A DNA stretch of 64,000 nt from Patescibacteria group bacterium (GCA_016861205.1 BOKX01000001.1:1076589-1140588), one strand, 5' to 3'. Counted from the first letter of the stretch, positions 43,903 through 62,888 are shown. Program-made: numbers and translations. The notes: generated from the letters alone by a model not told the origin.

Positions 43903-43955
43903 GTACAGTTTTGTAGTAAGCGAATTGGAAGTTAGGAGACTAGAACAATTAAGGA

Positions 43956-44013: not shown

Positions 44014-44021
44014 GAACTTTT

Positions 44022-46282: not shown

Positions 46283-46327
46283 CTCTGTTACTGTTAACGT
46301 GAATCTAGTTGCTCTGGAATATTGATT

Positions 46328-46384
46328 GTTTTCAGGATAAGTTAGAGAGCGCCTTTTTAGCGCTCGAGAACTTATCCTGAAAAC
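46328..46384 (+). promoter_or_regulatory. long perfect hairpin upstream of pilin gene (16-bp stem GTTTTCAGGATAAGTT / AACTTATCCTGAAAAC, 25-nt loop with internal GAGCGC/GCGCTC hairpin)
   Basis: The arms are exact reverse complements and lie 43 nt upstream of the pilin ATG. Confidence 0.4.
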
Positions 46385-46426
46385 AACCCTTGCAATCAAC
46401 TTAAAAAATGGTGTACCCTGGAGAAT

Positions 46427-47035: not shown

Positions 47036-47118
47036 TCGAGACACTCACCAAGAAACTGAAACCCCCTCGCCTAGGCGAGGGGGTTTGCGTTTCGGAGGAA
47101 AAGTTTTTATACTCAGGC

Positions 47119-47925: not shown

Positions 47926-47928
47926 ATT

Positions 47929-48041
47929 CCTGAAACCTTCCAACCTCTGATTGGCGACAGCGAAGACTGTGAAGTAGCACTATTTAGTGGAGGCAAACTG
48001 CAGAGTTTGGTGGTGGTGCCAAACGTTTAGAAGGTTTCAGG
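47929..48041 (+). promoter_or_regulatory. long-range inverted repeat CCTGAAACCTTC ... GAAGGTTTCAGG (12 bp) enclosing an 89-nt structured loop
   Basis: Read directly from the sequence. The interior contains further small palindromes (CAAACTGCAGAGTTTG). It lies between pilD and the PKD-domain gene. Confidence 0.35.
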
Positions 48042-48069
48042 AGTTAAGATTTGTTCTATACTGAGTGGT

Positions 48070-48981
48070 ATGCGAGTACTGCGCACTTTTTTGAGTTCAT
48101 TGATTTTACTGGGATTGGCAGCTGGCATCGTTGGCTTAATTGCTCGTGAAGTACTGCTGGTTATGGCAGTTGGGGTGGTGCGAGAGGCAGTTTCAGAAAT
48201 TCGAAATCAGTCTGTCCAACAAGGTAATTTTGTTCAGGAGTGCCTGAGCCGAGGCGGTGGGAGTGATGGTGAATCTCCCGTCAGTGCTATTCAACTCCGC
48301 TTCACTTCGGATACCGAGTTTGTAACTGAGGTCGTCTGTTCCCAGACGCAGTTTGAATCACTCATTACCAGCACCCGCGAGCTGCCGTGGATGGTCCGAA
48401 AAGTGCCAGGTACATCAGGTATTATTTGGAGTGATGCACGGTCTGGTATTGAGCTGGAAGTGTTTGGTCGTCACCGAGCTGTCATTATTGAGAATCGGAC
48501 GGTTGAGTATAGTTCGGACGAGAATGTTGACCTGGGTATCGGTCCGGTTACGACTTGCGAGGGCTACGGGTTTACTTGTTGTGCACTCGATAGCCAGGTG
48601 GGATTGGATAGTCAGTGGAATCAAGCTACAAACTGTCCCCGCTCGTGTTACAGCCGCTGTGTATCAAGACCGGTGGTTTTGTCGGTGGCAACGGACCCAT
48701 ACTATGAACTGGAAACTCGACGTGTAGCTATCAGCTCAGGTCAGTCGGTGGTGTTCACGGTTTTAGTGGAGGTTGGGCAAGCTAGCCCCGCGCAAGTTCA
48801 CCTCGACTTTGGTGATGGGCAAAGTGAAACAGGTAACGAGAACACGGAAACATACACACACACCTACACTTGTTCGCAGCCGAGTTGTGAGTACCGAGCT
48901 AAGGTTTTGATTACTGACTCAAAAGGCATCACTTCAACCGAGACGCTATCGAGTTCCTTAACCGTAGTGGTCACACCGTAA
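48070..48981 (+). CDS. membrane-anchored secreted protein with PKD-like domain
   Basis: An N-terminal TM anchor is followed by a C-terminal PKD-like signature VHLDFGDGQSE...YTHTY...YRAKVLITDSKG. Confidence 0.5.
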   Translation: MRVLRTFLSSLILLGLAAGIVGLIAREVLLVMAVGVVREAVSEIRNQSVQQGNFVQECLSRGGGSDGESPVSAIQLRFTSDTEFVTEVVCSQTQFESLITSTRELPWMVRKVPGTSGIIWSDARSGIELEVFGRHRAVIIENRTVEYSSDENVDLGIGPVTTCEGYGFTCCALDSQVGLDSQWNQATNCPRSCYSRCVSRPVVLSVATDPYYELETRRVAISSGQSVVFTVLVEVGQASPAQVHLDFGDGQSETGNENTETYTHTYTCSQPSCEYRAKVLITDSKGITSTETLSSSLTVVVTP

Positions 48982-49002
48982 AAAATGCGTTATGCTGAGG
49001 AT

Positions 49003-49476
49003 ATGAAGAGTCTTTTCTCCCGCTTGTCGGTCTGGTCTCCCCAACCAAAAATTGCCTCGCGACGTGGATTTACGTTGCTGGAGTTGTTGGTCGTGATTGC
49101 CATTTTGGGTATCTTAATGGCCATGGGAGCAGTCGCCTTCTCTACTGCGCAACGGCAAGGTCGAGATGCCAAGCGACGCGCTGATATGAAAGCGCTGCAG
49201 GGTGCATTCGAGCAGTATTACGCCGAAAATAACTCCAGTTACGGTGCGAACTGTGCAGCTATGGCGGTGAGTCCCTACATTCCTAGTGGTATGCCGGTTG
49301 ATCCACAGTCACCCAACTTAGATTACACTTGTACGTTAAATGTGAACTTAACCAGTTACTGTTCGTGTGCTGAGTTAGAAAATGCTGGGACAGGTAATGC
49401 CAACTCAGCTGGGGCGGCTGGCGTCTGTAGTTTTGCGACTGGTGGCAACTTTTACTGCGTCACTAATTTACAGTAA
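49003..49476 (+). CDS. type IV pilin-like protein (minor pilin)
   Basis: RRG|FTLLELLVVIAILGIL prepilin motif after a roughly 22-aa leader. The start was trimmed to MKSLF. Confidence 0.6.
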   Translation: MKSLFSRLSVWSPQPKIASRRGFTLLELLVVIAILGILMAMGAVAFSTAQRQGRDAKRRADMKALQGAFEQYYAENNSSYGANCAAMAVSPYIPSGMPVDPQSPNLDYTCTLNVNLTSYCSCAELENAGTGNANSAGAAGVCSFATGGNFYCVTNLQ

Positions 49477-49504
49477 GACTAGCTTAAGGGCGGAGGCCCT
49501 GTGT

Positions 49505-49912
49505 ATGTCACACTTTTTTACCCGAACTACCCGTCCAACTTACCAACGTGGTTTTACCATGATCGAGTTGCTGGTGGTGACAACCATTATCATTGTGTTA
49601 TCAACGATTGGCTTAGTCAGTTATCGCCAAGCTACCATGCGGACACGCAACAGCAAGCGACAAGGTGACATGGAGACAGTGCGCCAAGCTTTGGTTTTGT
49701 ATCGGACTGACAACTCAACCTATCCAGCGTCCATCAACTGGAACACCATGAGTCCCATCGAGTCTTACTTGAGTGTGACATCGATGACTGATCCCAAAAA
49801 CACCAACCCATACACCTATACCTACACCCAAACGAATAGTGGGACTGGTTTTACGTTGTGCTACTACTTGGAGCCTGATCCAGGCTCACAGCGGTGTTTA
49901 GCGAATCCGTAG
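49505..49912 (+). CDS. type IV pilin-like protein (minor pilin)
   Basis: QRG|FTMIELLVVTTIIIVL prepilin motif after a 16-aa leader. The start was trimmed to MSHFF. Confidence 0.6.
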   Translation: MSHFFTRTTRPTYQRGFTMIELLVVTTIIIVLSTIGLVSYRQATMRTRNSKRQGDMETVRQALVLYRTDNSTYPASINWNTMSPIESYLSVTSMTDPKNTNPYTYTYTQTNSGTGFTLCYYLEPDPGSQRCLANP

Positions 49913-49919
49913 GTTTGTT

Positions 49920-50420
49920 ATGAATATTTTGGCCAGCCCGTCTACCCGCTCCACGTCACAAGGTGGTTTTACGTTACTGGAAATGTTGATTGCCACAGTG
50001 GTGATGATGATGATGACTGGCATTGGTCTGGCTTCGTACCTTCGGTTTACCGAACGTCAAACGTTGAGAAATGCCGGAAAAGAGTTGCAAACGTACATGC
50101 GAGCAGCTCAAAGTCGAGCGCGCTCGGGAGATCGTCCCACCGGCTGTGCGCAACTGTTTGGTTATGCGGTGACAGGCGCAAATGGGGGTGTTCAGATTCA
50201 GCTGTCAGCTGTCTGTGAGAACGGGGTGGAAGTGGTGACTGACACTTACACGCTTCCCTCGGGATCAACATTGGGTGGAGCTTTAGATATGACGTTTGGT
50301 AGTTTAAAAGGTGGCGTGACGGGTGCTGGCACAGTAACGCTCATTTCTGGTGCTCAAGAGTACGAATTCACAGTTAGCCAAGGAGGAGAGATCGGCGATG
50401 GTGACATTGTGGCCCAGTAA
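49920..50420 (+). CDS. pseudopilin / minor pilin
   Basis: QGG|FTLLEMLIATVVMMMM prepilin motif after a 16-aa leader. Confidence 0.6.
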   Translation: MNILASPSTRSTSQGGFTLLEMLIATVVMMMMTGIGLASYLRFTERQTLRNAGKELQTYMRAAQSRARSGDRPTGCAQLFGYAVTGANGGVQIQLSAVCENGVEVVTDTYTLPSGSTLGGALDMTFGSLKGGVTGAGTVTLISGAQEYEFTVSQGGEIGDGDIVAQ

Positions 50421-50886
50421 ACAAGTTGTCAGGCGGTTCACTGCTTCATCAGGCCAAAGTATCGTCGAGGTGCTGATTGCAGTGGCGGTGGTAGCGGTAG
50501 TACTAACCACGGTGGCTGCTGGGCTCACCTACTCCGTCAAAACGACTTCTGAAGCTCGCTATCGCGCCTTCGCTACTAACTATGCTCAGGATGCCATAGA
50601 GGTGTTTAGGCGAGAACGAGCGACTTTGGGCTGGGAGTTATTCCGAGACAACATTGAAGCTGGAACCACTTGTTTGAATACCCTGCCAGCAACGACCGAC
50701 GCTTTTGTCAACTTAACCCCGGCGGCTTGTACGGTAGGTGTCCCGATGCTTGGCATGGATTTCCGCAGAGAGGTGGTTGTCACCTTTTTGAGTCCCGATG
50801 AAATCCAAGTTGAAGCGGTGGTGAGTTGGACTGATGGGAACCGTAGCCCAGAGATTAGTGTGGTTCAACAGTTCCGGGCTTACTAG
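50398..50886 (+). CDS. pilin-like protein (atypical cleavage motif)
   Basis: SSGQSIVEVLIAVAVVAVVL is a hydrophobic pilin-type N-terminal helix with an Glu at the position corresponding to prepilin Glu+5. It overlaps the previous gene by 23 nt. The start was trimmed to MVTLWPSK. Confidence 0.45.
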   Translation: MVTLWPSKQVVRRFTASSGQSIVEVLIAVAVVAVVLTTVAAGLTYSVKTTSEARYRAFATNYAQDAIEVFRRERATLGWELFRDNIEAGTTCLNTLPATTDAFVNLTPAACTVGVPMLGMDFRREVVVTFLSPDEIQVEAVVSWTDGNRSPEISVVQQFRAY

Positions 50887-50929
50887 TCAAAAAAACAGCC
50901 TTTTTTGTGGATGTTATATCTACAAATTG

Positions 50930-51913
50930 TTAAACAGGCAGTTTGTATGTCACCCAACCTTGAGCAGCTTCTCGCCGCAACCAAATACTGAGTGTTTGGG
51001 TTGCGGTGTTAACCACAATTTTGGCAACACTTCGCTCATTGTGAAGACTATGATCAGGCCCGAGAGATTCATCGAGCAGTAGTTTTTTCAAATGTTCAGG
51101 TGTCAAGTAATTTGCGACGTGTTGTTTTGCAAATTGAAGGCGCGTATGTGTGCCCCAGATTTCCCTGCTAGAATGCCGAGAGCCGAGCAAGCAATGATTT
51201 GTGTGACAAAATGGACTCGAGGGGTTGGCAATATGTGCTGAAGAGGCTGTCAATTCAGCGTGCCAGAGCTGCCCGGTTGGACTAGCAAGTAAATGACTAA
51301 AACCAGAAGTCCTGGAAATTTGGGTTAGTTTAGCTAAGTCATGATTAGGATCATGACTGTCTAATAAATATCGTGCTTGGATTAGTTTCGGAACACCCAA
51401 CTGTTTTCGAGTGAATAACAGTGTATTTACAGCATGAACATAGCCTGCAGAATTGATCCCAATAGCCGATCCACCAGGTGTATTGTAGTAGAACAATTCC
51501 AATGTGCGATGTGAACCAATTCTCTTTTGAACAATGCAGACATCATCTTCTCCGCCAAGTACGTGATCTTCACTGTGACCGATCAGTTGTCCATCATTGG
51601 TTACTATTGTTGTGCATTTGGCACGAGCTGGTTTGTGAGGTCCGAACGCATCATCTTCAATTGAGATTGTCCATAAGTCATCGAATGACACTTCTGCCCC
51701 ATCAGCATATCCTCTAAGTTCAGAAACATACTGAGGGAAGTGCTTCTGGGCGTATGTCAGTTGTGCGTGGGCAATCTGGCAGTGGACCGGCCACTGTGTG
51801 TGCTGGTGTGCGGTTTTAATTGCTTGGTATGCTTGGGCAGCAAACTGACGGCCTATCTTGATACCTAAGTCAAAGTGATTGCGCGCGCTAAAGGCATAAA
51901 AGTGCTGATGCAT
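50930..51913 (-). CDS. C45 family peptidase / acyl-CoA:6-aminopenicillanic-acid acyltransferase-like Ntn hydrolase
   Basis: It has a candidate autoprocessing and nucleophile site AKC|TTIV, a GHSEDH box and an NTPGGSAIGIN segment typical of the C45/AAT fold. The protein is 327 aa. Confidence 0.55.
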   Translation of the reverse strand: MHQHFYAFSARNHFDLGIKIGRQFAAQAYQAIKTAHQHTQWPVHCQIAHAQLTYAQKHFPQYVSELRGYADGAEVSFDDLWTISIEDDAFGPHKPARAKCTTIVTNDGQLIGHSEDHVLGGEDDVCIVQKRIGSHRTLELFYYNTPGGSAIGINSAGYVHAVNTLLFTRKQLGVPKLIQARYLLDSHDPNHDLAKLTQISRTSGFSHLLASPTGQLWHAELTASSAHIANPSSPFCHTNHCLLGSRHSSREIWGTHTRLQFAKQHVANYLTPEHLKKLLLDESLGPDHSLHNERSVAKIVVNTATQTLSIWLRREAAQGWVTYKLPV

Positions 51914-51935
51914 ATTTCAGTATACGATACTAGGA

Positions 51936-52940
51936 TTGAGTGGTACTATCAAAAACATGCAATATCGCATATTAGGTAAAACAGGCTTGAAGGTGTCTTC
52001 AATCGGGTGTGGTACTTGGGGATTTGCTAACGACACAGACGCTTGGGTCGGTGCTACAAAAAAGGAGAGTGAGGCAGCGTTATTCTTGGCTTTAGATCAA
52101 GGTGTTAATTTCATTGATACAGCGCGCGTCTATGGTGAGGGTTTGGCGGAAGAGTGGCTCGGTGAAATGTTACAAAAAACATCACAGAAGCAAGTATTGG
52201 TTGCCACAAAGATGACACCACTTAATCAACAGTGGTCAGGTATGGTGGGTACACCAATCAGTGAGGCTTTCCCCAAACAACATATTATTGATCAAGTAGA
52301 TGCTAGTTTGCGAGCACTTCGGCGCGACTATTTGGATGTGGTTTACTTTCATGTTTGGGAAGATGAATGGAGTGATGTACCGAGTTGGAAAGAAGCAGTT
52401 ACAGAATTAACGCAGGCAGGCAAGGTTAGATTCTGGGGTATTTCTACAAATGATTTTCAACCCACTAACTGCCTGAAAGCATGCCAAACAGGACTTATCT
52501 CAGTGATTATGACTATTTTCAACATTTTTGCTCAAGAACCAATTTCAGAGCTTTTGCCAGCTGTTAAGAAAATGAATCTCGGCTTAGTAAGTCGCGTTCC
52601 TTTGGATGAAGGTGGTCTGAGTGGTTCTTACACGCATGACACAGAGTTTCCTGAGGGTGATTTTCGCCAAACCTATTTTTCCAAAGACAGATTAGTACAA
52701 CTTAATAAACATCTCGATGCTTTACGGCCACTGATCAAAAAAAGTAACGCTAAAAATGTAGCTGAGTTTGCATTGCGTTATGTTCTATCATTTCCGGAAG
52801 TCACAGTTGCGGTTCCAGGCATGCGCAGACAAAAGTATGTGATTGCCAACACTAAGGTTTCTGATTTACCGCCATTACCTCAAGGTGTCCTCGAGGAGAT
52901 GCCGAAACATGCTTGGTTCAGAAATTTTTACGATGCGTAG
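51936..52940 (+). CDS. aldo/keto reductase
   Basis: The AKR N-terminus is present (ILGKTGLKVSSIGCGTWGF ... FIDTARVYGEG) on a (beta/alpha)8 fold. Composition is visibly AT-rich relative to flanking core genes. Confidence 0.8.
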   Translation: MSGTIKNMQYRILGKTGLKVSSIGCGTWGFANDTDAWVGATKKESEAALFLALDQGVNFIDTARVYGEGLAEEWLGEMLQKTSQKQVLVATKMTPLNQQWSGMVGTPISEAFPKQHIIDQVDASLRALRRDYLDVVYFHVWEDEWSDVPSWKEAVTELTQAGKVRFWGISTNDFQPTNCLKACQTGLISVIMTIFNIFAQEPISELLPAVKKMNLGLVSRVPLDEGGLSGSYTHDTEFPEGDFRQTYFSKDRLVQLNKHLDALRPLIKKSNAKNVAEFALRYVLSFPEVTVAVPGMRRQKYVIANTKVSDLPPLPQGVLEEMPKHAWFRNFYDA

Positions 52941-55780
52941 GGATGTAGGAATCGCCTGACATAGTTTTGTAATAGGTCAAGGCTAGAAATAGAAGCAAAT
53001 TGAAGGGAATAGCCGGGACTTACTGCATTGGTTTCTGTCTCAAAAAAATGTATGCCTTTTTCTTTGAGGGCAGAGAAAAAAGGAGCTAGTTGCTTTCCTT
53101 TACCTTGCTTCAGTTGGTCCTCAAGTGTTTTCAGCCAAAGTTCAAAGGAGAGTACGCCGAGTCTTAAATTGGCTTCATCGGAGATGGTTGCAACCGCATC
53201 CGACAACTGTAGTGGCCGCTGATTCTTAAACAATATTTTCTGGTCATTGGATTGTCTTGGTGCTGTTATTGCTTGACTGACTTCATCAACAGGTACTAGA
53301 TCTAACCACCAGTTTACATTGGGAAAGTAGCCAATTTCTAGACAGCTTTGGATAAAAGACCAAAAGAAATCGTGTTCACCAAAAACTGGTCGTTCTAGTC
53401 TGGGTGTTATGGTGGCAGGTGCGACAATGTTTTGCCGATAACCCAGTTTCGAGTAATGCGCAAGTTTCTCTTCATTAATGTACTTCGTTAATTCATATCC
53501 ATCAAAATCACTCAACCTTGCCGATGAAGTTATTGATGCAGTACTGGATGATGATACGAAGGTTACCAAACTGTTTTTTATTTTTCCCGCCAAACGTAAG
53601 ATCTCGTCGAAACTTTGGACATTGACCTTTTTCAAGTCAAAATAGTCCAATAAAAAATTGACCCAGTACCCGACATGATAAATGTACTCCACTTGGTCTA
53701 CTATGATTTGTTCTGATTCTCGACTGATACCCAAATTTGGTTCAGATAAATCACCTAAAATTGGCGTGACTAGTTCCTGTGGATACCGGTCATCAAAGTA
53801 TTTGCGCCAGGTTTTTATGATTTTTTCTTCAGCAAGTGCCAATGAATTTGCTCGCGTTAAACAGTAAACGGGAGTGTCGGCACTGGTAAGCTGATGTAGT
53901 ACATGTATTCCCAGAAAACCAGTTGCACCTGTTAAAAAATGACCGGAACCAGTGCTATCTTTAGTATTTGATTTATTTGATATGAAGTCTGAGGGAAGTA
54001 AAGCATCAGATACTATGTCACGAACTAACGTTGGTTGGGTATCGGGGTTTATTGTTAGCCATGTTCTTATTTTTGATAATGAACGACCGCCATAAAACGC
54101 CTTAAGTGGAATCGGCTCCAAACCAGCGGCTTGCAGATCAAGGTTTATCATTTCAATTGTTAGGGAGTCAGCGCCATGCAGAAAAATATCATCATCAGGA
54201 TTAGTGTCAAACCTAATGTTTTTACGAAAAATTTCCAGATACGTATCAATGTTGGTTCCCGGTGTGGTTTTTGGTAATGCTTGACTTTGTAAGGTTGACC
54301 AAAGTATTTTGCCATCTGCTCGCCTTGGTATCTCATCAACAAAAACAAATTTAATTGGAAGTGTCGGAATACCACTGACGTCAACAGCTTTTTGATACAG
54401 GTTACTTATCCGTTCTGATTTTTCTGATAAAGGAGACACAATAAAACACATTAACATGGTACTCGGTGGCCGATTGACGTGTGATATGGCGATATCAATG
54501 ATCTCGGGGTCATTCCTGAAGGCTTGTTCTAACTTATATAGATCTACTCGGGTGCCATGAATTTTGACCTCTTGGTTGCTTCGGCCTGCTAATTTGTATA
54601 GACCGTTCATGCCTTTTACCACTAAGTCGCCTGTCTTCACTACACGAACGCCTTGATATTCACGAAAGTTTGTTTGTTCCATAGCTGAGAAGTACCCTGG
54701 TGAGAGACCTGCCGAAGAAATATGCAGTTCCCCAATTGTGCCGTCTGGGACCAGATTTTGTTCTTCATCAAGAACAAAAAAACGGGTCGTTCCGAAAGGC
54801 TCACCAATTGGAACAAGCTCATCCGGGGAAAGTGATTCTTCACGAATATCATGGGCAAAGAAAAGACCGTTATCGACAATAGACTCCGTAAGACCATATG
54901 AATTAAGTATCATTGCTTGTGGCCAGGTTGTCCTCAAATCTCTCATTTCTTGAACAAACCATGCTTCAGAACCAACTACGACCAGCTTAGGTTGGTGATG
55001 GTTGGCTTCTGGATTTTCACGTAAATGCCTGATAAGTTGTCGAACGTATGCGGGTGTTATGTCCAGAAAGTCAAGTTTATGCAGATTGATGTATGTAACT
55101 AGTTGATTAATGTTTCGTCTGACCGCCATGGGCACAATATGCATTGTTGCCCCGACTGAATTAACCATAAACATATCATCAAAAAAACCGGCTACGTCAA
55201 AGCCAGACATTACCAAAAACTGCTTGTAGTCTGAAATTGACATTACTTGTTGCCAAGTTTTGACCATTTCGACCCAGCCAGAATAGCTGATCAAAACACC
55301 TTTAGGGATACCGCTTGAGCCTGAGGTAAAAATAATGGCTGCAATGTCTTCGGGTAATTCAATCTGAAGTGATCTCTTGGCATTTTCACTAAATGTGCCA
55401 GTGTCAGTTTGTAGTGTTGTTATGTCTCCAACTCTTCTGACATGCTGAGCAGTGGTTAGTACAATATCGGGGTTAGTCTGGCTCAGTAGCGCATCAATTT
55501 TCTCTTGCGAAGCGGTTGGAGAGATAGGTACAAATGGCCTGCGAAGACGGGTGCAAGCCTGGGTTGCCACGAAAGCTTCAATAGAGGCCTCAAATAACAA
55601 GCCTATGATATGTCGATCCGTTCCGAGATGTTTTTCAAGGGTTGTTGCTAATTTGCTGACTCTTTCGTCTAGTTCTTGGTAGGTGAAAGATTGACCATGA
55701 TCAACGAGGGCAATGCCAGCTGGATTTTTTTTTGCAGACTGCGATAACAAATGTTCTAAATGCATATTCTGTAATTGCAA
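52928..55780 (-). CDS. NRPS-like adenylation-thiolation-reductase (A-T-R) enzyme / carboxylic-acid-reductase-like
   Basis: An adenylation domain carries cores A3 (FTSGSSGIPKGV) and A7/A8 (YKTGDLV ... GRSNQEVKIHGTRVDLYKLE). A carrier-protein domain has a Ser in LHGADSLTIEMI. A C-terminal thioester-reductase NAD-binding motif FLTGATGFLGIH follows. Composition is AT-rich. Confidence 0.75.
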   Translation of the reverse strand: MQLQNMHLEHLLSQSAKKNPAGIALVDHGQSFTYQELDERVSKLATTLEKHLGTDRHIIGLLFEASIEAFVATQACTRLRRPFVPISPTASQEKIDALLSQTNPDIVLTTAQHVRRVGDITTLQTDTGTFSENAKRSLQIELPEDIAAIIFTSGSSGIPKGVLISYSGWVEMVKTWQQVMSISDYKQFLVMSGFDVAGFFDDMFMVNSVGATMHIVPMAVRRNINQLVTYINLHKLDFLDITPAYVRQLIRHLRENPEANHHQPKLVVVGSEAWFVQEMRDLRTTWPQAMILNSYGLTESIVDNGLFFAHDIREESLSPDELVPIGEPFGTTRFFVLDEEQNLVPDGTIGELHISSAGLSPGYFSAMEQTNFREYQGVRVVKTGDLVVKGMNGLYKLAGRSNQEVKIHGTRVDLYKLEQAFRNDPEIIDIAISHVNRPPSTMLMCFIVSPLSEKSERISNLYQKAVDVSGIPTLPIKFVFVDEIPRRADGKILWSTLQSQALPKTTPGTNIDTYLEIFRKNIRFDTNPDDDIFLHGADSLTIEMINLDLQAAGLEPIPLKAFYGGRSLSKIRTWLTINPDTQPTLVRDIVSDALLPSDFISNKSNTKDSTGSGHFLTGATGFLGIHVLHQLTSADTPVYCLTRANSLALAEEKIIKTWRKYFDDRYPQELVTPILGDLSEPNLGISRESEQIIVDQVEYIYHVGYWVNFLLDYFDLKKVNVQSFDEILRLAGKIKNSLVTFVSSSSTASITSSARLSDFDGYELTKYINEEKLAHYSKLGYRQNIVAPATITPRLERPVFGEHDFFWSFIQSCLEIGYFPNVNWWLDLVPVDEVSQAITAPRQSNDQKILFKNQRPLQLSDAVATISDEANLRLGVLSFELWLKTLEDQLKQGKGKQLAPFFSALKEKGIHFFETETNAVSPGYSLQFASISSLDLLQNYVRRFLHPYAS

Positions 55781-55808
55781 AATAGTATAAAGGAGTTAGG
55801 ATGGGCTC

Positions 55809-56078
55809 ATGCAAGAAAAAATCACACCTACTGGTCCCGAAGTACTCCATGCTGAACCTGGTAATTTTATTACCAACCAAATGATGACCCTTGATGACGG
55901 CAGAATAGTACCATCTGGGACCGTTTTGGTCGATGGTGCAAATATCCTACAACTTGAAAAGGGCTTTTACCACTTTCGTGTTGCCCAATTGCCAGGTGGT
56001 GTCCATGAAAACTGTGTGGCAGTAGGTGATGAGTTCGTGTACAAAATTGTTGACAGTCCGGTAAAGCTTGTCAAGTAA
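55809..56078 (+). CDS. small hypothetical protein
   Basis: An 89-aa ORF divergent from the NRPS-like gene. Confidence 0.3.
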   Translation: MQEKITPTGPEVLHAEPGNFITNQMMTLDDGRIVPSGTVLVDGANILQLEKGFYHFRVAQLPGGVHENCVAVGDEFVYKIVDSPVKLVK

Positions 56079-56111
56079 AAAGCTAATCGGTTCCAGTTCA
56101 TTGGTTACCAA

Positions 56112-56702
56112 CTACAAACTCCTGATTTGCACTCCAGTGGAAAAGGTTTGCTCAACGATGTCTCGTGGTTGATCCACGCCGGGTGTCCCCTTGCGCAAGG
56201 TGAAGGTAACTGTCACATACTGTGAGGTAAAGTCTGAGCCGCGAGTGCAGTTGAACGTGGGTCCGCTGGTCAAAGTAATAGCCCCTGAGGTGAGGTAGCT
56301 GGAGTTCGAAGCAATTTTAGGTCGGTTGTCGCTTGGGTCGGTGGCGCGAGTCAGAATGGTGGTCTCACCGTCAATTGACTTAAGTGCCAAAGTGCCCATG
56401 CCACTTTCACAGGTTTTAATGACGTTGCCGGGTGGGGTGACAGTGTCAGTGGTTGACTCAAGTTCGATAGCATTGCGGATGAGAAAAGCCATTTGGTTGA
56501 GTGCAAAGTCACCTTCAGCTTTGACTAGCTTGGCCGTGGAAGTTTTGGTGTTACCGATCAGAAAGGTCATGAACATCGCGGTGGCTGTTAACATAATCAT
56601 GACTGACAACGTAGTTACCATCAGCAGCTCGACCAATGTAAACCCCGCCTGGCGGCGGCGGTGCGGCGAGTGGCTGCGGTGAGCTAGTTGGTTTCTTGCC
56701 AT
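56112..56702 (-). CDS. pseudopilin / minor type IV pilin
   Basis: RRQAG|FTLVELLMVTTLSVMIML prepilin motif after a roughly 20-aa basic leader. It overlaps the upstream Cys-rich gene by 19 nt. Confidence 0.65.
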   Translation of the reverse strand: MARNQLAHRSHSPHRRRQAGFTLVELLMVTTLSVMIMLTATAMFMTFLIGNTKTSTAKLVKAEGDFALNQMAFLIRNAIELESTTDTVTPPGNVIKTCESGMGTLALKSIDGETTILTRATDPSDNRPKIASNSSYLTSGAITLTSGPTFNCTRGSDFTSQYVTVTFTLRKGTPGVDQPRDIVEQTFSTGVQIRSL

Positions 56703-59065
56703 AGTGAGTAGGCTCGGGTCATGCGGGCCGGAATGTTTTCAATGAAGTCTGGTCGGAACACAAAAACTTCGGACGGGTTGGTGGCGTTTTGAGAGCCAGT
56801 GCCACCAGTTCGTAAATCACGGCTTAACGTTACGCCGGACCAGCCGATAAAGTTGCCGGCGCCCACAAATTGGCGGTCCCCACCTGTGCCGGAGGCTTGG
56901 ATGTTGATAGTGCCATTAGCAATGTAGACACCATCAAGTACCGGGCTGTTATTGGCAACTGGATTGCCAACGGTAGCATTAACAATGATGTCGCCCGAAA
57001 CGATGAAGGCTAAGAAACCACCTGGTTCCACTTCGATTAAGTGATCAACGCCAGCGGCGTTGGTGATGGTTAAATCGCCATTGATGAACACTACAATCGA
57101 TTCATCTGCTGCCACCAACCAGTCGTTGATGATTGTCACATCACCGTTGTAAGCATACGCCCGACCGTTGTCAGGGGCGGTCGCAGCATTATTGGGATCG
57201 GGTTTGACGAAATCATAAACTTGAACAGAGTCGTCATTGGTGACGATTGGTGAGCTGGTACCCATGCTGTAGAGCCGGTAAAAGTAATCATAGTTCTCTC
57301 GCAAACGAGTGGTGGCGGTTCCCCTAGCAATGAGGGCGGTGCCATCCTGATTGATGTTGGCGGTGTTCTGATTGCCCTGGGTATCTTCGACGTCTACTTC
57401 TCCTCCCGCACTGACCGCAATGCCAGCGGTGCCGGCGGTGTCATTCAAATCGCGCGCTGCTAAGTATGGGATGCAACCTACACCTGTGTCACACGTGTCG
57501 GCGGGAATATTGGAGTAAAACGATGTCCCAGTTGTGGCTCCGGTGTACGCGTTGCCGCCGCGGAACTGCCACCAAGCGGTGGTGTTTAAAACCAAGTTGG
57601 TGATGAAGTAGTTGACGCCACTTTGCGGTGAGGTCAAGCCGGCGTAACCGCAGCCTACTGTAGCCGGACATGTACAGGCATAGTTTGCACCTGGATTGAG
57701 TCCAGCGTAATTATTGGGACTTGGCCAGGATGCCCAAGGAATCCAATACGGGACAGGTTCAGAGAAGGTCCCATCATTATTGATAGCTACCACATGTGGA
57801 GCTGCATTTCTATCAAAAATACCCACAAATGACCCACTGCCGCCTTGCGTCCCGGTAGTGGTGGGACCAATACAAACTGCCCCCGGTGTAGGTTGATAGG
57901 CAGTTGCGTCGTTATCTAAATAAACCCGACCAGACAGGATTCCCGTGGCGGTGATAGTGCCTGTCACGTATGCGCCATACTCATAGGGTGGTCCACAAGA
58001 GATGTTGATTGGGCGTATGCTAAAAACGTATTCTGCGTATGGCCCTGGATAGATACTGACTGAGTTGGTGAAATTGACATTGCCACAATAGGCAACCCCG
58101 TAAATATCAAGCGAACAGTCACCGCCGACTGGATACAACTCAACCTCATATACATCAGCTGTCGAGCTGGCTGTCCAGCTAAAAGTGATGGTTCCATTAT
58201 TAGCTACAGCCACCGTCCCGTTATTAGCTGGAGTAGTGCTCAGAATACTTGGGACTCCGGTATCTGTACTGGCGCAGGTACCACCACAGCCATCAGTTTG
58301 GCCACAGGCAGACGTGCAGTTGGGGGTACAAACACCACAATTAGGGCAAGTATTATCAGCCACACAGACACTATCACAGAATTGGCCGGTGGAAATTGAT
58401 CGGTAATAGCCACTTTGTCTCTGGCAGTCATTACAAACGTCAACAGGACCACACCAATTGGTAGCAACATATTCACGATCGGCACCTTGGCAGACAGTCC
58501 CGGGATTGCTACATGATTGGGTGTTACAACTGCGAGAAGTAGAGGCACAGCCAGACGGGTTGCAACTGCGCGTTTGGATACCACCACCGCAGCTGGCGCT
58601 GCAAGCTGACCAGGCCGTGCAGTTACAAGTAGCTGGTGGGGGTTCGCAGCCGTAAGGGCTAGGTGGGTTCCACTGACAGTTCCCACCCAAAGTACCCGGG
58701 TAACAGTCCCCGGTGTTAAAGTCAGTTGCAACGCACTGACGGGCAGCATTCGTGGTGCACAGCCGACGCATTAATGTGTTGCCGCGACAGTTGTTGGAGT
58801 TGTTGCGACAACTGGGGTTAGGATGATTGGGACGACAAGAGCCATTACAAGGTGCGCCGGCTGGGCAACATGAAACCATTGGGTAACAATAAATTTCGCC
58901 ACCACAAGTACTAGTTGTGCCATCATTTTCACAGGGATCTGCGCCAGCGGTAGCCGCACTAAGTTTTCCTCTAGCACAGAAAAAAGTGAGCAGGAGTACA
59001 AACAAAGCGAAATATACCTTTTTTCTCACAGAAGTAACTATACCAGTTAAAAAATAGTCAGGCAA
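56684..59065 (-). CDS. large Cys-rich secreted protein with thrombospondin type-1-like motif and C-terminal parallel beta-helix repeats
   Basis: A signal peptide is followed by about 300 aa with more than 50 Cys, including CTAWSACSASCGGGIQTRSC, which matches the TSP1 repeat WSxCSxSCGxGxxxR. The C-terminus has Gly/Asn/Thr/Val-rich repeats (NGDVTIINDW ... FINGDLTITNAAG ... IVSGDIIVNATVGN) typical of right-handed beta-helices. Confidence 0.6.
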   Translation of the reverse strand: MPDYFLTGIVTSVRKKVYFALFVLLLTFFCARGKLSAATAGADPCENDGTTSTCGGEIYCYPMVSCCPAGAPCNGSCRPNHPNPSCRNNSNNCRGNTLMRRLCTTNAARQCVATDFNTGDCYPGTLGGNCQWNPPSPYGCEPPPATCNCTAWSACSASCGGGIQTRSCNPSGCASTSRSCNTQSCSNPGTVCQGADREYVATNWCGPVDVCNDCQRQSGYYRSISTGQFCDSVCVADNTCPNCGVCTPNCTSACGQTDGCGGTCASTDTGVPSILSTTPANNGTVAVANNGTITFSWTASSTADVYEVELYPVGGDCSLDIYGVAYCGNVNFTNSVSIYPGPYAEYVFSIRPINISCGPPYEYGAYVTGTITATGILSGRVYLDNDATAYQPTPGAVCIGPTTTGTQGGSGSFVGIFDRNAAPHVVAINNDGTFSEPVPYWIPWASWPSPNNYAGLNPGANYACTCPATVGCGYAGLTSPQSGVNYFITNLVLNTTAWWQFRGGNAYTGATTGTSFYSNIPADTCDTGVGCIPYLAARDLNDTAGTAGIAVSAGGEVDVEDTQGNQNTANINQDGTALIARGTATTRLRENYDYFYRLYSMGTSSPIVTNDDSVQVYDFVKPDPNNAATAPDNGRAYAYNGDVTIINDWLVAADESIVVFINGDLTITNAAGVDHLIEVEPGGFLAFIVSGDIIVNATVGNPVANNSPVLDGVYIANGTINIQASGTGGDRQFVGAGNFIGWSGVTLSRDLRTGGTGSQNATNPSEVFVFRPDFIENIPARMTRAYSLWQETN

Positions 59066-59079
59066 TTATTCAGATACAG

Positions 59080-61971
59080 CTATTTAATAGGGATGATACG
59101 GTCGAACTCTGGGCTCCAAGGGTCAGCCAAATTAGTCCTTAAAGACATATGGGGACTGTCTTGACCAAATACTAGCTCATTAAAAGCATCAAAATCGGGA
59201 CCACCCCAATTACCAGTAGAAAACTGTTCGATTTTACCTTGAGGGACAAGGAACATGTTTAAAATATTTCCAGAAATGCCACCAACAAAGGAAGAAAACT
59301 GGCTATTTAACCCAAATTGGAAAATATGAATGATATTTTTACCATCTGGTGTTGTTTCCACATCAGCAAATGATGTTGAACCCTGGTTATGAAGCAATCT
59401 GGATTCAGGGGTTTCCTCTCCAGCAATTGACATGCCTTGCAAGGTATCAAACACGATTTGGTCTTCGAATGGATCAAACTGAATCGTCTTAATCTCACCT
59501 TTGAAATTCATGATTCTCAATTCAAATGTTCCTCTAAACTGGAACTCGCCTGACAGAATCTGGTCAAAGGCTGGGATTTCACTACCGTCAGTTCCTCGCT
59601 CAATGTGGTCGCGAACGAGAAGGTAGTAAATAGTCTGCGCTCGCAGGTATCTCATTAACAACGCTGATTGCTCAGGATTAGCAGTGAAATCAGGGGTTAG
59701 ATTAGCCTGGTTCGAATTTGTGAACGAAATGCCGGCATCAGGGAAGTACACTAAACTGTTAGGGTTTAATGTCTCAGTAGTTTTCATGGGTACCTCAAGA
59801 CTTTGATAAGCCATGTCAGCACTAGTGAGCAGGATATCCTTTGAAATAGGTTCAACAGTAATGCCAGTCGCATCCGTTTCAGAAGGTTGGATGTTTTCTG
59901 AGGGGACTACTGGCGCTGGTGGCGTAGCCTCAGCCGACACCAAACTGGCAGGATCTGGATTTTGTTCACCTTCGCTGACCAACTCCATATTCACCCAGAC
60001 AATGCGGCCCTGTGGTTCGACCACCAAGACCCACTCGCCGTTGGCGACAATGCGACCGGTACTGGTGTCAATTTCGGTAGCAGCATCAAATAACTCACCA
60101 CGCTCAGCTTGAAGACTATCCAGCTCAGACACAGGGACAGGCCAGGCAGTTTCGTGAGGTTTGAGTGAGCCAACCGGCGTGTTGCCGGCGGCTTCTGGGG
60201 TTTCGCGCAAGTTAACTGAAGTAGTTTTGGCGTTGATCAGTGGTGTGACCCCCTCAGGATTTAGCAACATGGTATTGCTGGCGGCTAGGGCTTCATTCGG
60301 ACCATTGGGTCCGATGACCAACAATACTTTACCAGTTGAGGCTGTGCCAAGGACTTGGCGGTCTTTACTAAACAAGTGAGGTTTGACTTGCTCTAGGTCC
60401 CAGATCTCAACTCGCTCACTAGCCTCTGGTGACAGATAGCGCCACTCACCGGCTTGGTTGAACAACATGACTGTGCCAGCTGGCAGTACGAAGTCGTTAT
60501 TAAAGCGAATGGGAGTATCAGTTTGCCAGATAATGGTAGCTTTCATTTCTCCATTTTGATTGTCAAAGTACAGTCCAATTTTTTGGTCGGCGACTTGTTC
60601 AGGACTCATGACTTTTTGGTCAACAACCAGCTGCAAAATACCTTGAGCCACTTCCATAATCTCAGCGTGCAGCTGTGAGTTTTCATTGAATTTAGGCAAG
60701 CCAGCTAACGTAGTTCCGTCTTCCAGCATGTGCAGATCGCCGTACCAAAGTAAACCTTGGTCGCGATTGACAAACTCTGGCTCAGTAAGCACATGACTGC
60801 TCATGGTGTCTTTGTCGGCTTGATCAATTAAAAACTCCTGCAACAGCTGTGGTAACTGAGCGCCGTTCTGCTCTGGACTTGGGGTGCCAATTTCAGTTTT
60901 AGTTTCAGTAGCAAATTGACTGTCAAACGTGCTGGTATCTCCAGCTGATGAGCCGTCAACGATGCCGCCAAAAGTCGGTGACTCAACCTCTAGTTTTTCG
61001 CCCAGAAGTATTTCGCAGCGAGCGATGTAGTCTCGCAAAGCTGTAACATCAATACCCAGCACGGCTCGCAGGTCTTTGATAATCTGGTTGATCGTGGCGT
61101 TGTCTTGGCCATCTGGACAGACGTCAGCTTCGGTTAAGTGCTCTGCCACCTGACCTGGCATCTCTGAGCCAGCCATAGCAGTAGTAGCGATGGCGCCCGC
61201 GGCGAAGGTAGCTCCCCCGGCGGCTAGCTTTCTAGCTGTTCGACCGGTCATTAAACCACGCAGTTGGCTCAATCGATAGCGAGCCAGGCTCGGCTCGACT
61301 GGAGTTTTGAGTTGAGCTTCAACAGGTGGTTTGAGATTGGCAAAACGAGCTAGTAGTTTCTTCTCTCGGTTAGTAATATCTTGCCAGACTCCCCTTCTAA
61401 TTTGATAAATGACTTTTACAATTCGACGAAGGTAATCTTGACGTGAGTGCAACAATTTGGCAGTCACTTCTCTGCCCGACTCAATTTTGCTGATTAAGTC
61501 TTCGAGCTCTTGAGCGAGTTCGAGCTGATCAGAACTGCCTGAGTCACGAAGCCGGGCCGTATAAGCGTCGACATACATTTTGAGGGTGTCAAAATTGTCA
61601 TGAACAAACTCGACGTGTCGCAGTAGCTCTGCAGATAGATCGCGAGCTACTTCGATATCACTCAAGGTTGTCTCAGTGTTTTCCAGATCGGGAAATAGGC
61701 CAGTCAGATCCATGTGGCCTTTGAGGGCTTGCTGGAGTTCTGCTTTTAGTTGCAAAGCGAATTTTTTGAGTTCTTCAGGAGTTAAGGCATCAATTTTGTC
61801 TTTGGGGCTCAGATCAGAGCGTTGTTCAGAACCTTCAAGATTAAGGAGTCCAGTCATAACCACACCCTCTTCAGAGCCAAACCGTGTAACTTGCTGATCC
61901 GGCCCGTACCCTTTACGTTCATGTGTACTGGCATTTTTATAGACCATATCGTTTTGCCAAGCAACTGCCAC
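59080..61971 (-). CDS. large hypothetical membrane-anchored protein (963 aa)
   Basis: An N-terminal roughly 250-aa coiled-coil-like region and one TM helix (LAAGGATFAAGAIATTAMAG) are followed by a large C-terminal domain. It lies 14 nt upstream of the Cys-rich gene on the same strand. Confidence 0.55.
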   Translation of the reverse strand: MAVAWQNDMVYKNASTHERKGYGPDQQVTRFGSEEGVVMTGLLNLEGSEQRSDLSPKDKIDALTPEELKKFALQLKAELQQALKGHMDLTGLFPDLENTETTLSDIEVARDLSAELLRHVEFVHDNFDTLKMYVDAYTARLRDSGSSDQLELAQELEDLISKIESGREVTAKLLHSRQDYLRRIVKVIYQIRRGVWQDITNREKKLLARFANLKPPVEAQLKTPVEPSLARYRLSQLRGLMTGRTARKLAAGGATFAAGAIATTAMAGSEMPGQVAEHLTEADVCPDGQDNATINQIIKDLRAVLGIDVTALRDYIARCEILLGEKLEVESPTFGGIVDGSSAGDTSTFDSQFATETKTEIGTPSPEQNGAQLPQLLQEFLIDQADKDTMSSHVLTEPEFVNRDQGLLWYGDLHMLEDGTTLAGLPKFNENSQLHAEIMEVAQGILQLVVDQKVMSPEQVADQKIGLYFDNQNGEMKATIIWQTDTPIRFNNDFVLPAGTVMLFNQAGEWRYLSPEASERVEIWDLEQVKPHLFSKDRQVLGTASTGKVLLVIGPNGPNEALAASNTMLLNPEGVTPLINAKTTSVNLRETPEAAGNTPVGSLKPHETAWPVPVSELDSLQAERGELFDAATEIDTSTGRIVANGEWVLVVEPQGRIVWVNMELVSEGEQNPDPASLVSAEATPPAPVVPSENIQPSETDATGITVEPISKDILLTSADMAYQSLEVPMKTTETLNPNSLVYFPDAGISFTNSNQANLTPDFTANPEQSALLMRYLRAQTIYYLLVRDHIERGTDGSEIPAFDQILSGEFQFRGTFELRIMNFKGEIKTIQFDPFEDQIVFDTLQGMSIAGEETPESRLLHNQGSTSFADVETTPDGKNIIHIFQFGLNSQFSSFVGGISGNILNMFLVPQGKIEQFSTGNWGGPDFDAFNELVFGQDSPHMSLRTNLADPWSPEFDRIIPIK

Positions 61972-62186
61972 CAGAGAAATTGAGGCAGTGCGGTATGAAT
62001 TGATATAGAAACCAATAGTTTTTACTATCGGCCTGTTTGGGGAATTATAAAATTAGCCTGGTAGTACTCTCAATGTGTAACAGATAAGTAAACTATAGGC
62101 TTATGAACGAAGAGCTAAAATATAGCAACACCCTATCTCGGTTGCAATAGGAAAAAAACAGGTTCCGACTTGGCTGAGTAACAGAT

Positions 62187-62792: not shown

Positions 62793-62888
62793 CGTTCACT
62801 TTTAGGCCAGCCGTTAGGCACCGACTCTTTCTTATAGGACACCGATGAGATATAATACGCATTCAATACTTATAGCAAGTTTGAGTTT

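What the first reader, a model, noticed from the sequence alone, without database searches (positions are those of the whole stretch)
56112..61971. Operon of a pseudopilin, a 793-aa Cys-rich protein with a TSP1-like repeat plus beta-helix, and a 963-aa membrane protein: candidate pilus-associated adhesin system
Three minus-strand genes are tightly linked (a 14-nt gap and a 19-nt overlap). The final gene is a prepilin-peptidase substrate (G|FTLVELL). Co-transcription with a giant disulfide-rich secreted protein suggests the Cys-rich protein is presented on or by a type IV pilus-like fibre, as a tip adhesin. The 963-aa protein, with a cytoplasmic coiled-coil, one TM helix and a large outside domain, may be its anchor or assembly partner. 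Together with the nearby pilus locus and its long-leader pilins, this may be a cell-attachment apparatus. None of the three large proteins has an obvious characterised homologue.
Basis: partly seen in the sequence, partly recalled or inferred. Interest (0 to 1): 0.7.

Follow-up and report, generated by a model that had tools for sequence, protein, structure and literature searches.

The report
Pilus-linked cysteine-rich solenoid protein and pseudopilin
In a small-genome (Patescibacteria-like) bacterium, a secreted cysteine-rich protein is always paired with its own minor pilin next to the type IV pilus genes, and its conserved tail folds like the cap of the Thermus competence pilus, so it is probably a new kind of pilus-tip binding protein with a strain-variable head.

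Summary
In detail: three co-oriented minus-strand genes of 963, 793 and 196 aa, with a 14-nt gap and a 19-nt overlap.

- **The 196-aa protein** is a genuine prepilin (G|FTLVELL, Pfam N_methyl above threshold).
- **The conserved unit is FAM plus the pseudopilin.** In 16 of 43 family loci the pseudopilin directly follows FAM. All 13 of those with enough flank, plus close relative L047, lie beside a PilB/T/C/D and minor-pilin operon.
- **The 963-aa protein** is nearly an orphan, with 3 hits in 1.84 billion proteins. It is conserved only as a position.
- **Strain comparison.** Against a sister strain the pilus operon is 97-98% identical. The FAM head and the 963-aa C-terminus are replaced, while solenoid and pseudopilin stay under strong purifying selection.

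Best reading: a non-pilin, PilY1-like tip adhesin docked through a ComZ/PilX-type solenoid. Adhesion and tip location are inferred, not shown.

The parts
62044..62073 (-). Promoter-like site (TTGAGA-18-TATAAT, 11 of 12) upstream of the 963-aa gene. It is a possible operon promoter.
   Evidence: This is a consensus match only. No terminator-like site of note lies between the three genes.
59080..61971 (-). Gene for the 963-aa protein (probably 955 aa from ATG 61947). It has a helical N-terminal region of about 245 aa, a weak hydrophobic segment at aa 249-268 (nt 61168-61227), and a mixed alpha/beta remainder. It is lineage-specific.
   Evidence: no family hit; 3 hits in 1.84e9; AF2 pLDDT 35.7, unusable.
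59083..59901 (-). Strain-variable C-terminal module of the 963-aa protein (aa 691-963).
   Evidence: It is 14-17% identical to the sister-strain protein, against 88% for aa 276-690. It is not alignable at the DNA level.
56684..59065 (-). Gene for FAM, the 793-aa Sec-exported, cysteine-rich modular protein.
58256..58945 (-). FAM cysteine-rich head (aa 41-270, 35 Cys). It includes a TSP1-like repeat at aa 147-185 (nt 58511-58627). Residues 41-140 are hypervariable between strains.
   Evidence: AF2 confidence is low in this region.
57611..58255 (-). FAM stalk: two beta-sandwich domains, one Fn3/Big_7-like and one CarboxypepD_reg/SdrD-B-like.
56687..57610 (-). FAM conserved C-terminal domain (aa 486-793). 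It is an ice-binding-protein-like beta-solenoid ending in the family signature RPDF..P..W-Q-E-T-N. This is the proposed pilus-docking module.
56112..56702 (-). Pseudopilin (minor pilin) of 196 aa, with a 20-aa leader and G|FTLVELL. Its ATG lies inside the codons for FAM's conserved WQETN tail.
41887..50886 (+). Type IV pilus operon that the pair belongs to: PilB, PilT, PilC, pilin, PilD, a PKD protein and four minor pilins.
   Evidence: The same operon abuts the pair in L001, L006, L014-L016, L020-L023, L025, L027, L040 and L047.
50887..56112 (.). Strain-specific 5.2-kb insertion that separates the pair from the pilus operon. It is not part of the system.
   Evidence: It is absent from L047 and L001. 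GC is 0.42 against about 0.49 elsewhere.

Best explanation
The 793-aa protein (FAM) and the 196-aa pseudopilin form an accessory module of the neighbouring type IV pilus.

**Pseudopilin.** It is cleaved by PilD and enters the minor-pilin priming complex at the pilus tip.

**FAM.** It is exported by Sec and disulfide-bonded outside the cell. It is not a pilin. I propose that its conserved C-terminal beta-solenoid, perhaps with the conserved and poorly packed WQETN tail, docks on the pseudopilin and minor-pilin complex. The solenoid would then cap the fibre. The Fn3/Ig stalk would hold the variable cysteine-rich head outward to bind a target, most likely a host-cell surface glycan or protein.

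**Comparison with known systems.** FAM would work like PilY1/PilC, which are non-pilin proteins with a variable N-terminal binding part and a conserved C-terminal docking part. The docking domain, however, is of the ComZ or cyanobacterial-PilX solenoid type, not a beta-propeller.

**963-aa protein.** It is a co-oriented, lineage-specific, probably membrane-anchored surface protein. Its C-terminal module varies together with the FAM head. Its role (second binding subunit, anchor or chaperone) is unresolved.

**Shown:** gene anatomy, the prepilin motif, fold, synteny, and the selection pattern.
**Inferred:** physical FAM-pseudopilin contact, tip location, and adhesion.
For: **1. Linkage**
- A homologue of the window pseudopilin follows FAM in 16 loci, with an iterated-profile E of 1e-47 to 1e-66. 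The gaps are -23 to +76 nt, apart from L001 (447 nt) and L021 (one gene between).
- Every strong pseudopilin-family hit in about 560 kb of loci lies next to a FAM gene.

**2. Pilus context**
- 13 of the 13 loci with enough flank, window included, have PilD/PilC (and, where the flank reaches, PilT/PilB) within 3-9 kb, in convergent orientation. Close relative L047 (fetched later) abuts the operon with a 4-nt gap.
- In L014 the pseudopilin sits on the pilus-operon strand.
- In L001 the pair lies between the pilus operon and pilM.

**3. Fold**
- AF2 from a 70-sequence alignment gives pLDDT >90 over most of aa 270-790.
- ComZ is a tip pilin. Its solenoid-bearing protein binds the adjacent minor pilin PilA2 with Kd 0.69 uM (PMC6561018).
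- Cyanobacterial PilX solenoids are proposed to act as PilY1-like tip plugs (bioRxiv 10.64898/2026.02.12.705559).
- Weak DUF7305 matches fall on the solenoid in 12 of 70 members.

**4. Export and adhesin-like modules**
- Sec-type signal peptides occur across the family.
- Head modules include TSP1 repeats, F5/8-type-C (galactose-binding-like) domains and CGDGxC-type Cys repeats.
- The stalks resemble those of Gram-positive adhesins (SdrD, UafA, Bap, SiiE).

**5. Selection, compared with sister strain L047**

| Region | dS | aa identity | dN/dS |
|---|---|---|---|
| Pilus operon genes | 0-0.13 | | |
| Pseudopilin | 0.44 | 97% | 0.03 |
| FAM solenoid | 0.95 | 95% | 0.04 |
| FAM stalk | 2.2 | | |
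| FAM head | saturated | 35% | |
| 963-aa C-terminus | | 17% | |

Divergence peaks at the outward-facing modules. The proposed docking parts are tightly conserved.

**6. Missing cap pilin.** Among the pilins scanned, Pfam gives GspH- and Tt1218-type hits in the pilus operon, and the pseudopilin gives weak GspJ/ComGF/PpdC-type matches. No GspK/PilX-type hit appeared. This leaves the cap position open.
Against: - No direct evidence of contact.
- About 27 of 43 family loci have no adjacent pseudopilin. These include copies in Chloroflexota records. Many pair FAM with a small N-terminally anchored membrane protein instead. The solenoid can therefore exist away from a pilin gene.
- FAM lacks the pilin helix that inserts ComZ/PilX into the fibre.
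- Similarity to ComZ is structural only, at 15% identity. A PDB profile search finds nothing real. Ice-binding proteins with no link to pili score equally well.
- The head could not be modelled, with pLDDT <50.
- The class of the pseudopilin is unresolved, since all class-specific hits are below cut-off.
- The reciprocal census, from pseudopilin to FAM, failed.
Confidence: 0.55

Rival explanations
1. DNA receptor of a competence pilus. FAM plus the pseudopilin would be the counterpart of ComZ plus PilA2. They would bind extracellular DNA at the pilus tip for uptake, which matters for Patescibacteria that scavenge nucleotides.
Against: Family heads carry TSP1, discoidin-type and Cys-repeat modules typical of protein or glycan binding. 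The head is replaced between near-identical strains, which is unexpected for a generic DNA binder. [quoted passage not shown]
Confidence: 0.13
2. Pilus-independent surface or secreted protein. FAM would be a cell-surface adhesin or matrix protein held by other partners, such as the small anchored membrane protein or the large upstream protein. The pseudopilin would simply be the last minor pilin of the pilus locus that happens to lie next to it.
For: Most family loci lack a pseudopilin but keep the arrangement [large protein] -> [protein of about 160-235 aa with an N-terminal anchor] -> FAM, with 4-8-nt overlaps. The ice-binding-like fold is common in non-pilus surface proteins. In L014 the pseudopilin is on the pilus-operon strand rather than the FAM strand.
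Against: The start codon of the pseudopilin overlaps or abuts the FAM stop in most linked loci, across deep branches of the family tree. The pseudopilin family was seen only beside FAM. Solenoid and pseudopilin share unusually strong purifying selection inside a divergence island. Pseudopilin-linked copies are spread over the whole tree, so linkage looks ancestral (NJ tree without support values).
Confidence: 0.22
3. Cargo of a secretion pseudopilus. The pilus-like machine would act as a type II secretion-like piston and FAM would be its substrate.
For: Pseudopilin-type N-terminal matches to GspH, GspJ and HpsB/C models. FAM is a large exported protein encoded beside the machine.
Against: The operon encodes a PilT retraction ATPase and a major pilin, as in type IVa pili. 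No secretin was seen in the window. These organisms are thought to lack an outer membrane, so Sec export alone puts FAM outside.
Confidence: 0.05

Closest known systems
ComZ-PilA2 of Thermus thermophilus (PDB 6qvi; PMC6561018)
   Different: ComZ is itself a GspK-like pilin, with the solenoid inserted into the pilin fold and an N-terminal hydrophobic helix. FAM has a Sec signal, a Cys-rich head and an Fn3/Ig stalk, and no pilin part. Sequence identity is 15% and no sequence-profile match exists. ComZ's known ligand is DNA.
Cyanobacterial PilX / HpsA-type minor pilins with a solenoid (bioRxiv 10.64898/2026.02.12.705559)
   Same: They carry a bulky ice-binding-like solenoid at the tip subunit. 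It is proposed to replace PilY1 as tip plug and adhesin in organisms without PilY1. The pseudopilin here gives weak matches to HpsB/HpsC-type models.
   Different: There the solenoid is again inserted into a pilin. Here it is on a separate non-pilin protein.
PilY1 / PilC tip adhesins of Proteobacteria
   Same: They are non-pilin, Sec-exported proteins encoded with minor pilins. They have a variable N-terminal binding region and a conserved C-terminal region that associates with the minor-pilin tip complex. This is established knowledge and is also summarised in the two papers above.
   Different: The PilY1 C-terminal domain is a beta-propeller. FAM's is a beta-solenoid. There is no Pfam or NCBIfam match.
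PilX1/PilX2 of Saccharibacteria TM7x (PMC11623550)
   Same: They come from the same superphylum. They are large accessory proteins in type IV pilus loci without a PilD-type signal, and are proposed as tip adhesins for binding host bacteria.
   Different: They are described as pilin-like lollipops with a jelly-roll or a seven-bladed propeller, not a Cys-rich head plus solenoid. They were not compared directly here.
Ice-binding proteins (DUF3494, e.g. 3wp9)
   Different: They have no pilus context. Only 1 of 70 family members gives even a weak Pfam Ice_binding hit. The similarity concerns the scaffold, not the function.

Membership tests
Type IV pilin / pseudopilin (196-aa protein) | Class III signal peptide: short basic leader, G/A at -1, hydrophobic N-terminus with Glu5 | tested here: met
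   The sequence reads RRRQAG|FTLVELL. Pfam N_methyl scores 26.3 against 21.2 bits and TIGR02532 scores 17.7 against 16.3. All 16 family members match N_methyl, and FTLxE is invariant.
Type IV pilin / pseudopilin (196-aa protein) | Prepilin peptidase and assembly machinery encoded in the genome | tested here: met
   PilD (A24_N_bact plus Peptidase_A24), PilB, PilT and PilC lie at 41887-47925.
Type IV pilin / pseudopilin (196-aa protein) | Globular alpha/beta pilin head domain | not tested
A PDB profile search matches only the N-terminal helix.
GspJ / PilW / ComGF class of core minor pilins (196-aa protein) | Match to class-specific models above their cut-offs | tested here: inconclusive
   PRK10557 and ComGF models hit 16 of 16 members and GspJ hits 11 of 16. 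All hits are far below cut-off and cover mainly the first 55 residues.
ComZ / solenoid-PilX tip pilins (793-aa protein) | Ice-binding-like triangular beta-solenoid domain | tested here: met
ComZ / solenoid-PilX tip pilins (793-aa protein) | Solenoid inserted into a GspK-like pilin fold with an N-terminal hydrophobic pilin helix | tested here: not met
   The N-terminus is a Sec-type signal followed by a Cys-rich region and two beta-sandwiches. No pilin motif is present.
ComZ / solenoid-PilX tip pilins (793-aa protein) | Encoded beside a minor pilin and binds it | tested here: inconclusive
   Adjacency is met in 16 loci.
PilY1 / PilC tip adhesins (793-aa protein) | C-terminal PilY1-type beta-propeller domain | tested here: not met
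   There is no Pfam or NCBIfam hit. The model shows a solenoid, not a propeller.
Thrombospondin type 1 repeat (793-aa protein, aa 147-185) | Pfam TSP_1 match above the gathering score | tested here: inconclusive
   The window segment alone scores 17.3 against 21.6 bits (E 0.006). Homologues P0007 (43.4 bits, 4 repeats) and P0008 (54.4 bits, 5 repeats) pass.
Pfam DUF7305 (793-aa protein, solenoid) | Match above the gathering score of 27 bits | tested here: not met
   The window protein gives no hit. 12 of 70 relatives hit at E<=0.01, and only P0052 exceeds the cut-off at 29.4 bits. The relationship is distant at most.
Ice-binding proteins (DUF3494) | Sequence membership (Pfam Ice_binding) | tested here: not met
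   1 of 70 members gives a weak hit at E 0.0013, and the window protein gives none. Only the fold is shared.
Any known family (963-aa protein) | Sequence or fold match | tested here: not met
   Pfam and NCBIfam give nothing. There are 3 hits in 1.84e9 proteins. The AF2 model is unusable at pLDDT 35.7.

The most novel reading that the evidence does not exclude
FAM proteins would be a previously unrecognised, Patescibacteria-wide class of non-pilin type IV pilus tip proteins, in effect a 'split ComZ/PilX'. The solenoid cap has become a separate Sec-exported protein that docks on a dedicated minor pilin. It carries interchangeable, rapidly replaced cysteine-rich heads that set which host cell or surface an episymbiont binds. 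Unlinked paralogues would be alternative heads for the same pilus. The adjacent large variable protein would co-evolve with the head as part of the same recognition cassette.
Probability: 0.35. Interest if true: 0.75.

Novelty: new variant of a known kind. Interest (0 to 1): 0.6.

Why it matters
- **Open question.** Patescibacteria are thought to depend on type IV pili to find and hold their hosts. The molecules that give specificity are known only tentatively, and only in Saccharibacteria.
- **What this offers.** It is a concrete, widely distributed candidate (61 relatives in a profile search; 41 loci in species-representative genomes). It has a conserved docking end and a strain-variable outer end. 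That makes host-range determination testable by head swaps, pull-downs and immunolabelling.
- **Evolutionary point.** The tip-cap solenoid of ComZ/PilX-type pilins may also exist as a stand-alone protein. That would be an intermediate between 'modular pilins' and PilY1-type non-pilin adhesins.
- **Annotation problem.** NCBI gene calls truncate the Cys-rich head (509 of 793 aa here, 651 of 788 aa in L001). The family is therefore under-recognised in databases.

Tried and rejected
- **Reciprocal census.** The metagenome scan starting from the pseudopilin alignment was saturated by the generic pilin N-terminal pattern. It returned only 5 unrelated pilins.
- **First genome scan.** The run with alignment A2 failed because it had no conserved stretch. 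It was repeated with A3.
- **AFDB fold search.** The afdb50 library was not installed.
- **963-aa model.** AF2 from 4 sequences gave pLDDT 35.7, so no fold search was attempted.
- **PDB profile search with the solenoid.** It gave only spurious additive hits to artificial RecA polyproteins.
- **Other fold searches.** Foldseek against the PDB and against viral models returned only Ig/Fn3 hits from the stalk.
- **Large upstream proteins.** BLASTP and jackhmmer among them found no relationship beyond subclades. 'Conserved trio' was therefore rejected in favour of 'conserved pair plus variable partners'.
- **Source organism.** It could not be named. Cluster look-up carried no names, P0003 is not on record, and the window has no rRNA. 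Patescibacteria is inferred from the relatives' record titles.
- **C-terminal sorting signal.** The idea that the WQETN end is an LPXTG- or PEP-CTERM-like sorting signal was rejected, because no C-terminal hydrophobic helix is present.
Full report
**Observation**

The three minus-strand ORFs exist as described: 59080-61971 (963 aa), 56684-59065 (793 aa) and 56112-56702 (196 aa). They are separated by a 14-nt gap and a 19-nt overlap.

The starts are uncertain.
- Public gene calls begin the first gene at ATG 61947, giving 955 aa.
- They begin the second at TTG 59005, giving 773 aa.
- GTG 59029 would give the best signal peptide for the second gene.

A good sigma-70-like site lies upstream of the first gene at 62073-62044, and nothing terminator-like of note separates the genes. 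The pseudopilin's ATG sits inside the codons for the last residues of the 793-aa protein.

**The 196-aa protein**

It is a prepilin. It has a 20-residue basic leader followed by G|FTLVELL. Pfam N_methyl and TIGR02532 both score above their cut-offs.

**The 793-aa protein ("FAM")**

It matches no Pfam or NCBIfam family above threshold. It has 45 cysteines, 35 of them in residues 41-270.

The segment CNCTAWSACSASCGGGIQTRSC...C (aa 147-185) gives sub-threshold thrombospondin type 1 hits. Homologues with 4-5 copies score clearly.

AlphaFold2 with a 70-sequence alignment models residues 270-790 with high confidence. It fails on the head.
- The stalk is two beta-sandwiches resembling Fn3 domains and adhesin stalks.
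- The C-terminal 300 residues form a beta-solenoid.

**The 963-aa protein**

It is close to an orphan. A full HMMER pass over 1.84 billion representatives finds itself, one close relative and one 28%-identical protein. Its AF2 model is unusable, with pLDDT 35.7.

The model's secondary structure and the sequence are compatible with three parts:
- a helical cytoplasmic N-terminal part;
- one weak hydrophobic segment at aa 249-268, preceded by basic residues;
- a mixed alpha/beta remainder.

**Family and context**

Full-length relatives of FAM are few, with 10 found. A profile of the C-terminal domain finds 61 proteins. It also finds 41 loci in species-representative genomes.
- Nearly all come from Patescibacteria (Microgenomates, Pacebacteria/Paceibacterota, Beckwith-, Shapiro- and Chisholmbacteria).
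- A few come from Chloroflexota records and one from a TM6-labelled record.

All share the signature WWQ...GGFLAFIVSGDI...FVGxGxFVGW...RPDF..P..WQETN at the very C-terminus. All have Sec-type signal peptides. The N-terminal parts vary widely: TSP1 repeats, F5/8-type-C domains, CGDGxC-type repeats and a Hint domain.

I called ORFs in all loci and searched them with profiles. In 16 loci, including the window, a homologue of the window pseudopilin follows FAM directly.
- The window and L001 pseudopilins are 46% identical (E 1e-51).
- The gaps are -23, -19, -19, -4, -1, 1, 3, 4, 4, 8, 14, 44, 61 and 76 nt.
- Two loci are exceptions (L001, 447 nt; L021, one intervening gene).

No strong pseudopilin-family hit lies anywhere else in the loci. 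All 13 linked loci with enough flank carry PilD/PilC (and, where the flank reaches, PilT/PilB) convergently a few kb away.

Three further observations tie the pair to the pilus.
- In L001 the pair lies between the pilus operon and a deoxyribosyltransferase-methyltransferase-pilM block. The same two flanking genes occur in the window at 62187 and 62889.
- In L014 the pseudopilin is on the pilus-operon strand.
- In the sister strain L047 the pseudopilin stop is 4 nt from the stop of the last minor-pilin gene.

The 5.2 kb between them in the window (50887-56112, GC 0.42) is therefore an insertion.

**What is not conserved**

The large upstream protein is not alignable between genomes beyond subclades.

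Most loci have a further gene between it and FAM. It encodes a protein of about 160-235 aa with an N-terminal membrane anchor, and it often overlaps FAM by 4-8 nt. The window, L001 and L015 lack it.

About 27 of 43 family loci have no pseudopilin. On a crude NJ tree of the C-terminal domain, pseudopilin-linked copies occur in all major branches, with unlinked copies interspersed. Linkage therefore looks ancestral and unlinked copies look like derived paralogues. The Chloroflexota copies nest beside the window/L001/L006 group (no support values).

**Selection**

Against sister strain L047, the pilus operon is 97-98% identical in DNA and the trio is about 80% identical. Window 58631-59908 does not align at all. 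That stretch covers the C-terminus of the 963-aa protein plus the FAM head.

Synonymous divergence (NG86) rises towards that junction.

| Region | dS | aa identity | dN/dS |
|---|---|---|---|
| Pilus genes | 0-0.13 | | |
| Last minor pilin | 0.21 | | |
| Pseudopilin | 0.44 | 97% | 0.03 |
| FAM solenoid | 0.95 | 95% | 0.04 |
| FAM stalk | 2.2 | | |
| FAM head | saturated | | |
| 963-aa, aa 691-963 | about 2.6 | | |
| 963-aa, aa 276-690 | 0.95 | | |
| 963-aa, aa 9-245 | 0.84 | | |

This is the pattern of old, maintained or exchanged alleles centred on two outward-facing modules. The solenoid and the pseudopilin stay tightly constrained.

**Interpretation**

The literature provides the frame.
- ComZ is a GspK-like pilin carrying an ice-binding-like solenoid. 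It binds the adjacent minor pilin PilA2 and is argued to cap the pilus (PMC6561018).
- Cyanobacterial PilX proteins carry the same kind of solenoid, which is proposed to replace PilY1 as tip plug.
- In Saccharibacteria, large pilus-locus proteins without PilD signals are the candidate host-binding tip proteins.
- Candidate-phyla-radiation bacteria encode extracellular disulfide-forming enzymes. That fits a Cys-rich exported protein.

The best reading is that FAM is a non-pilin tip protein. Its solenoid docks on the dedicated pseudopilin and minor-pilin complex, and its variable head binds a target. Functionally this is PilY1-like. Structurally it is of the ComZ/PilX-solenoid type.

FAM fails membership of both families on defining features: it has no propeller and no pilin fold. 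I therefore class it as a new variant of a known kind.

The last 13 residues are highly conserved (W789 nearly invariant) yet poorly packed in the monomer model (pLDDT 52-68). This would suit a partner-binding tail, but that is inference.

**Rivals**

Three alternatives remain open, mainly because no interaction test could be run and many paralogues are unlinked:
- a ComZ-like DNA receptor;
- a pilus-independent surface protein;
- a secretion cargo.

**Verdict**

- Its pilus-associated adhesin idea is supported for the pair, by synteny, fold and selection evidence it could not have had.
- The role proposed for the 963-aa protein is not supported beyond co-orientation and co-variation of its C-terminus with the FAM head.

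Noticed in passing
window 50887-56112: A strain-specific 5.2-kb insertion (GC 0.42) sits exactly in the 4-nt spacer between the pseudopilin and the last minor-pilin gene. It carries an AAT-like acyltransferase (50930-51913), an aldo/keto reductase (51936-52940), a 950-aa AMP-binding plus thioester-reductase (carboxylic-acid-reductase-like) protein (52928-55780) and an 89-aa ORF. It is absent from L047 and L001.
   Followed up: partly
window 56112-62090 compared with L047: This is a divergence island. Synonymous divergence rises from about 0.1 in the pilus operon to saturation at the junction between the 963-aa C-terminus and the FAM head (window 58631-59908 is not alignable). It then falls again. 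The pattern suggests allele exchange or long-maintained alleles at this locus.
   Followed up: yes
L006 5585-6166, L016 4234-4812, L020 6109-6717, L021 2322-2903, L022 6139-6723, L036 4151-4780, L040 6100-6693; also L009, L010, L011, L013, L018, L028, L035, L042, and L002 10411-10968: A gene lies immediately upstream of FAM and often overlaps it by 4-8 nt (in L002 it lies downstream). It encodes a protein of about 160-235 aa with an N-terminal membrane anchor and no PilD motif. Part of this set forms one family (L020, L021, L022, L040, L009, L018, L002). It is missing from the window, L001 and L015. It might be a degenerate pilin-like partner.
   Followed up: partly
window 57153-59065; L001 7590-8000: NCBI gene calls truncate FAM proteins: 509 of 793 aa here (P0003) and 651 of 788 aa in L001 (P0004). 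The signal peptide and Cys-rich head are lost. In one Logan contig a 169-aa shadow ORF (window 58240-58749, another frame) was called instead.
   Followed up: partly
L003, L004, L005, L007 (Chloroflexota / Aggregatilineales records), L018 (Anaerolineales): FAM copies in Chloroflexota-labelled assemblies (three in one 3.68-Mb contig) nest beside the Patescibacteria window/L001/L006 group on the NJ tree. They lack a pseudopilin. They are preceded by a 296-319-aa protein with a twin-arginine-like signal (SRRDFLK). This could reflect horizontal transfer or mis-binning.
   Followed up: no
window 48070-48981: A 303-aa PKD-domain protein is encoded inside the pilus operon, between PilD and the minor pilins. 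It is conserved at the same place in L001 and L047.
   Followed up: no
window 49382-49912: The apparent 'long-leader' pilin (N_methyl motif at aa 54-76 of the maximal ORF) is called as 135 aa in the sister strain. The long leader is therefore probably an artefact of ORF over-extension.
   Followed up: partly
P0010, P0061, P0064, P0072 (family members ending in ...YIWRYQ): This is a divergent subfamily with the same C-terminal domain. One member (P0010) carries an N-terminal Hint/intein-like domain, which hints at autoprocessing in some relatives.
   Followed up: no
window 62187-63944 and L001 3063-4821: A nucleoside 2-deoxyribosyltransferase-like gene and a methyltransferase gene are conserved, divergently oriented neighbours of the cassette. 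In L001 and a JGI contig they are followed by pilM, so pilM probably lies just beyond the window's end.
   Followed up: no
record titles of L010, L016, L017, L019, L026, L027, L031, L035-L038 and of P0004: Several small-genome assemblies carrying this Patescibacteria-type cassette are labelled 'uncultured Pseudomonadales' or 'Vitreimonas sp.' in public records. These are probably taxonomic mislabels.
   Followed up: no
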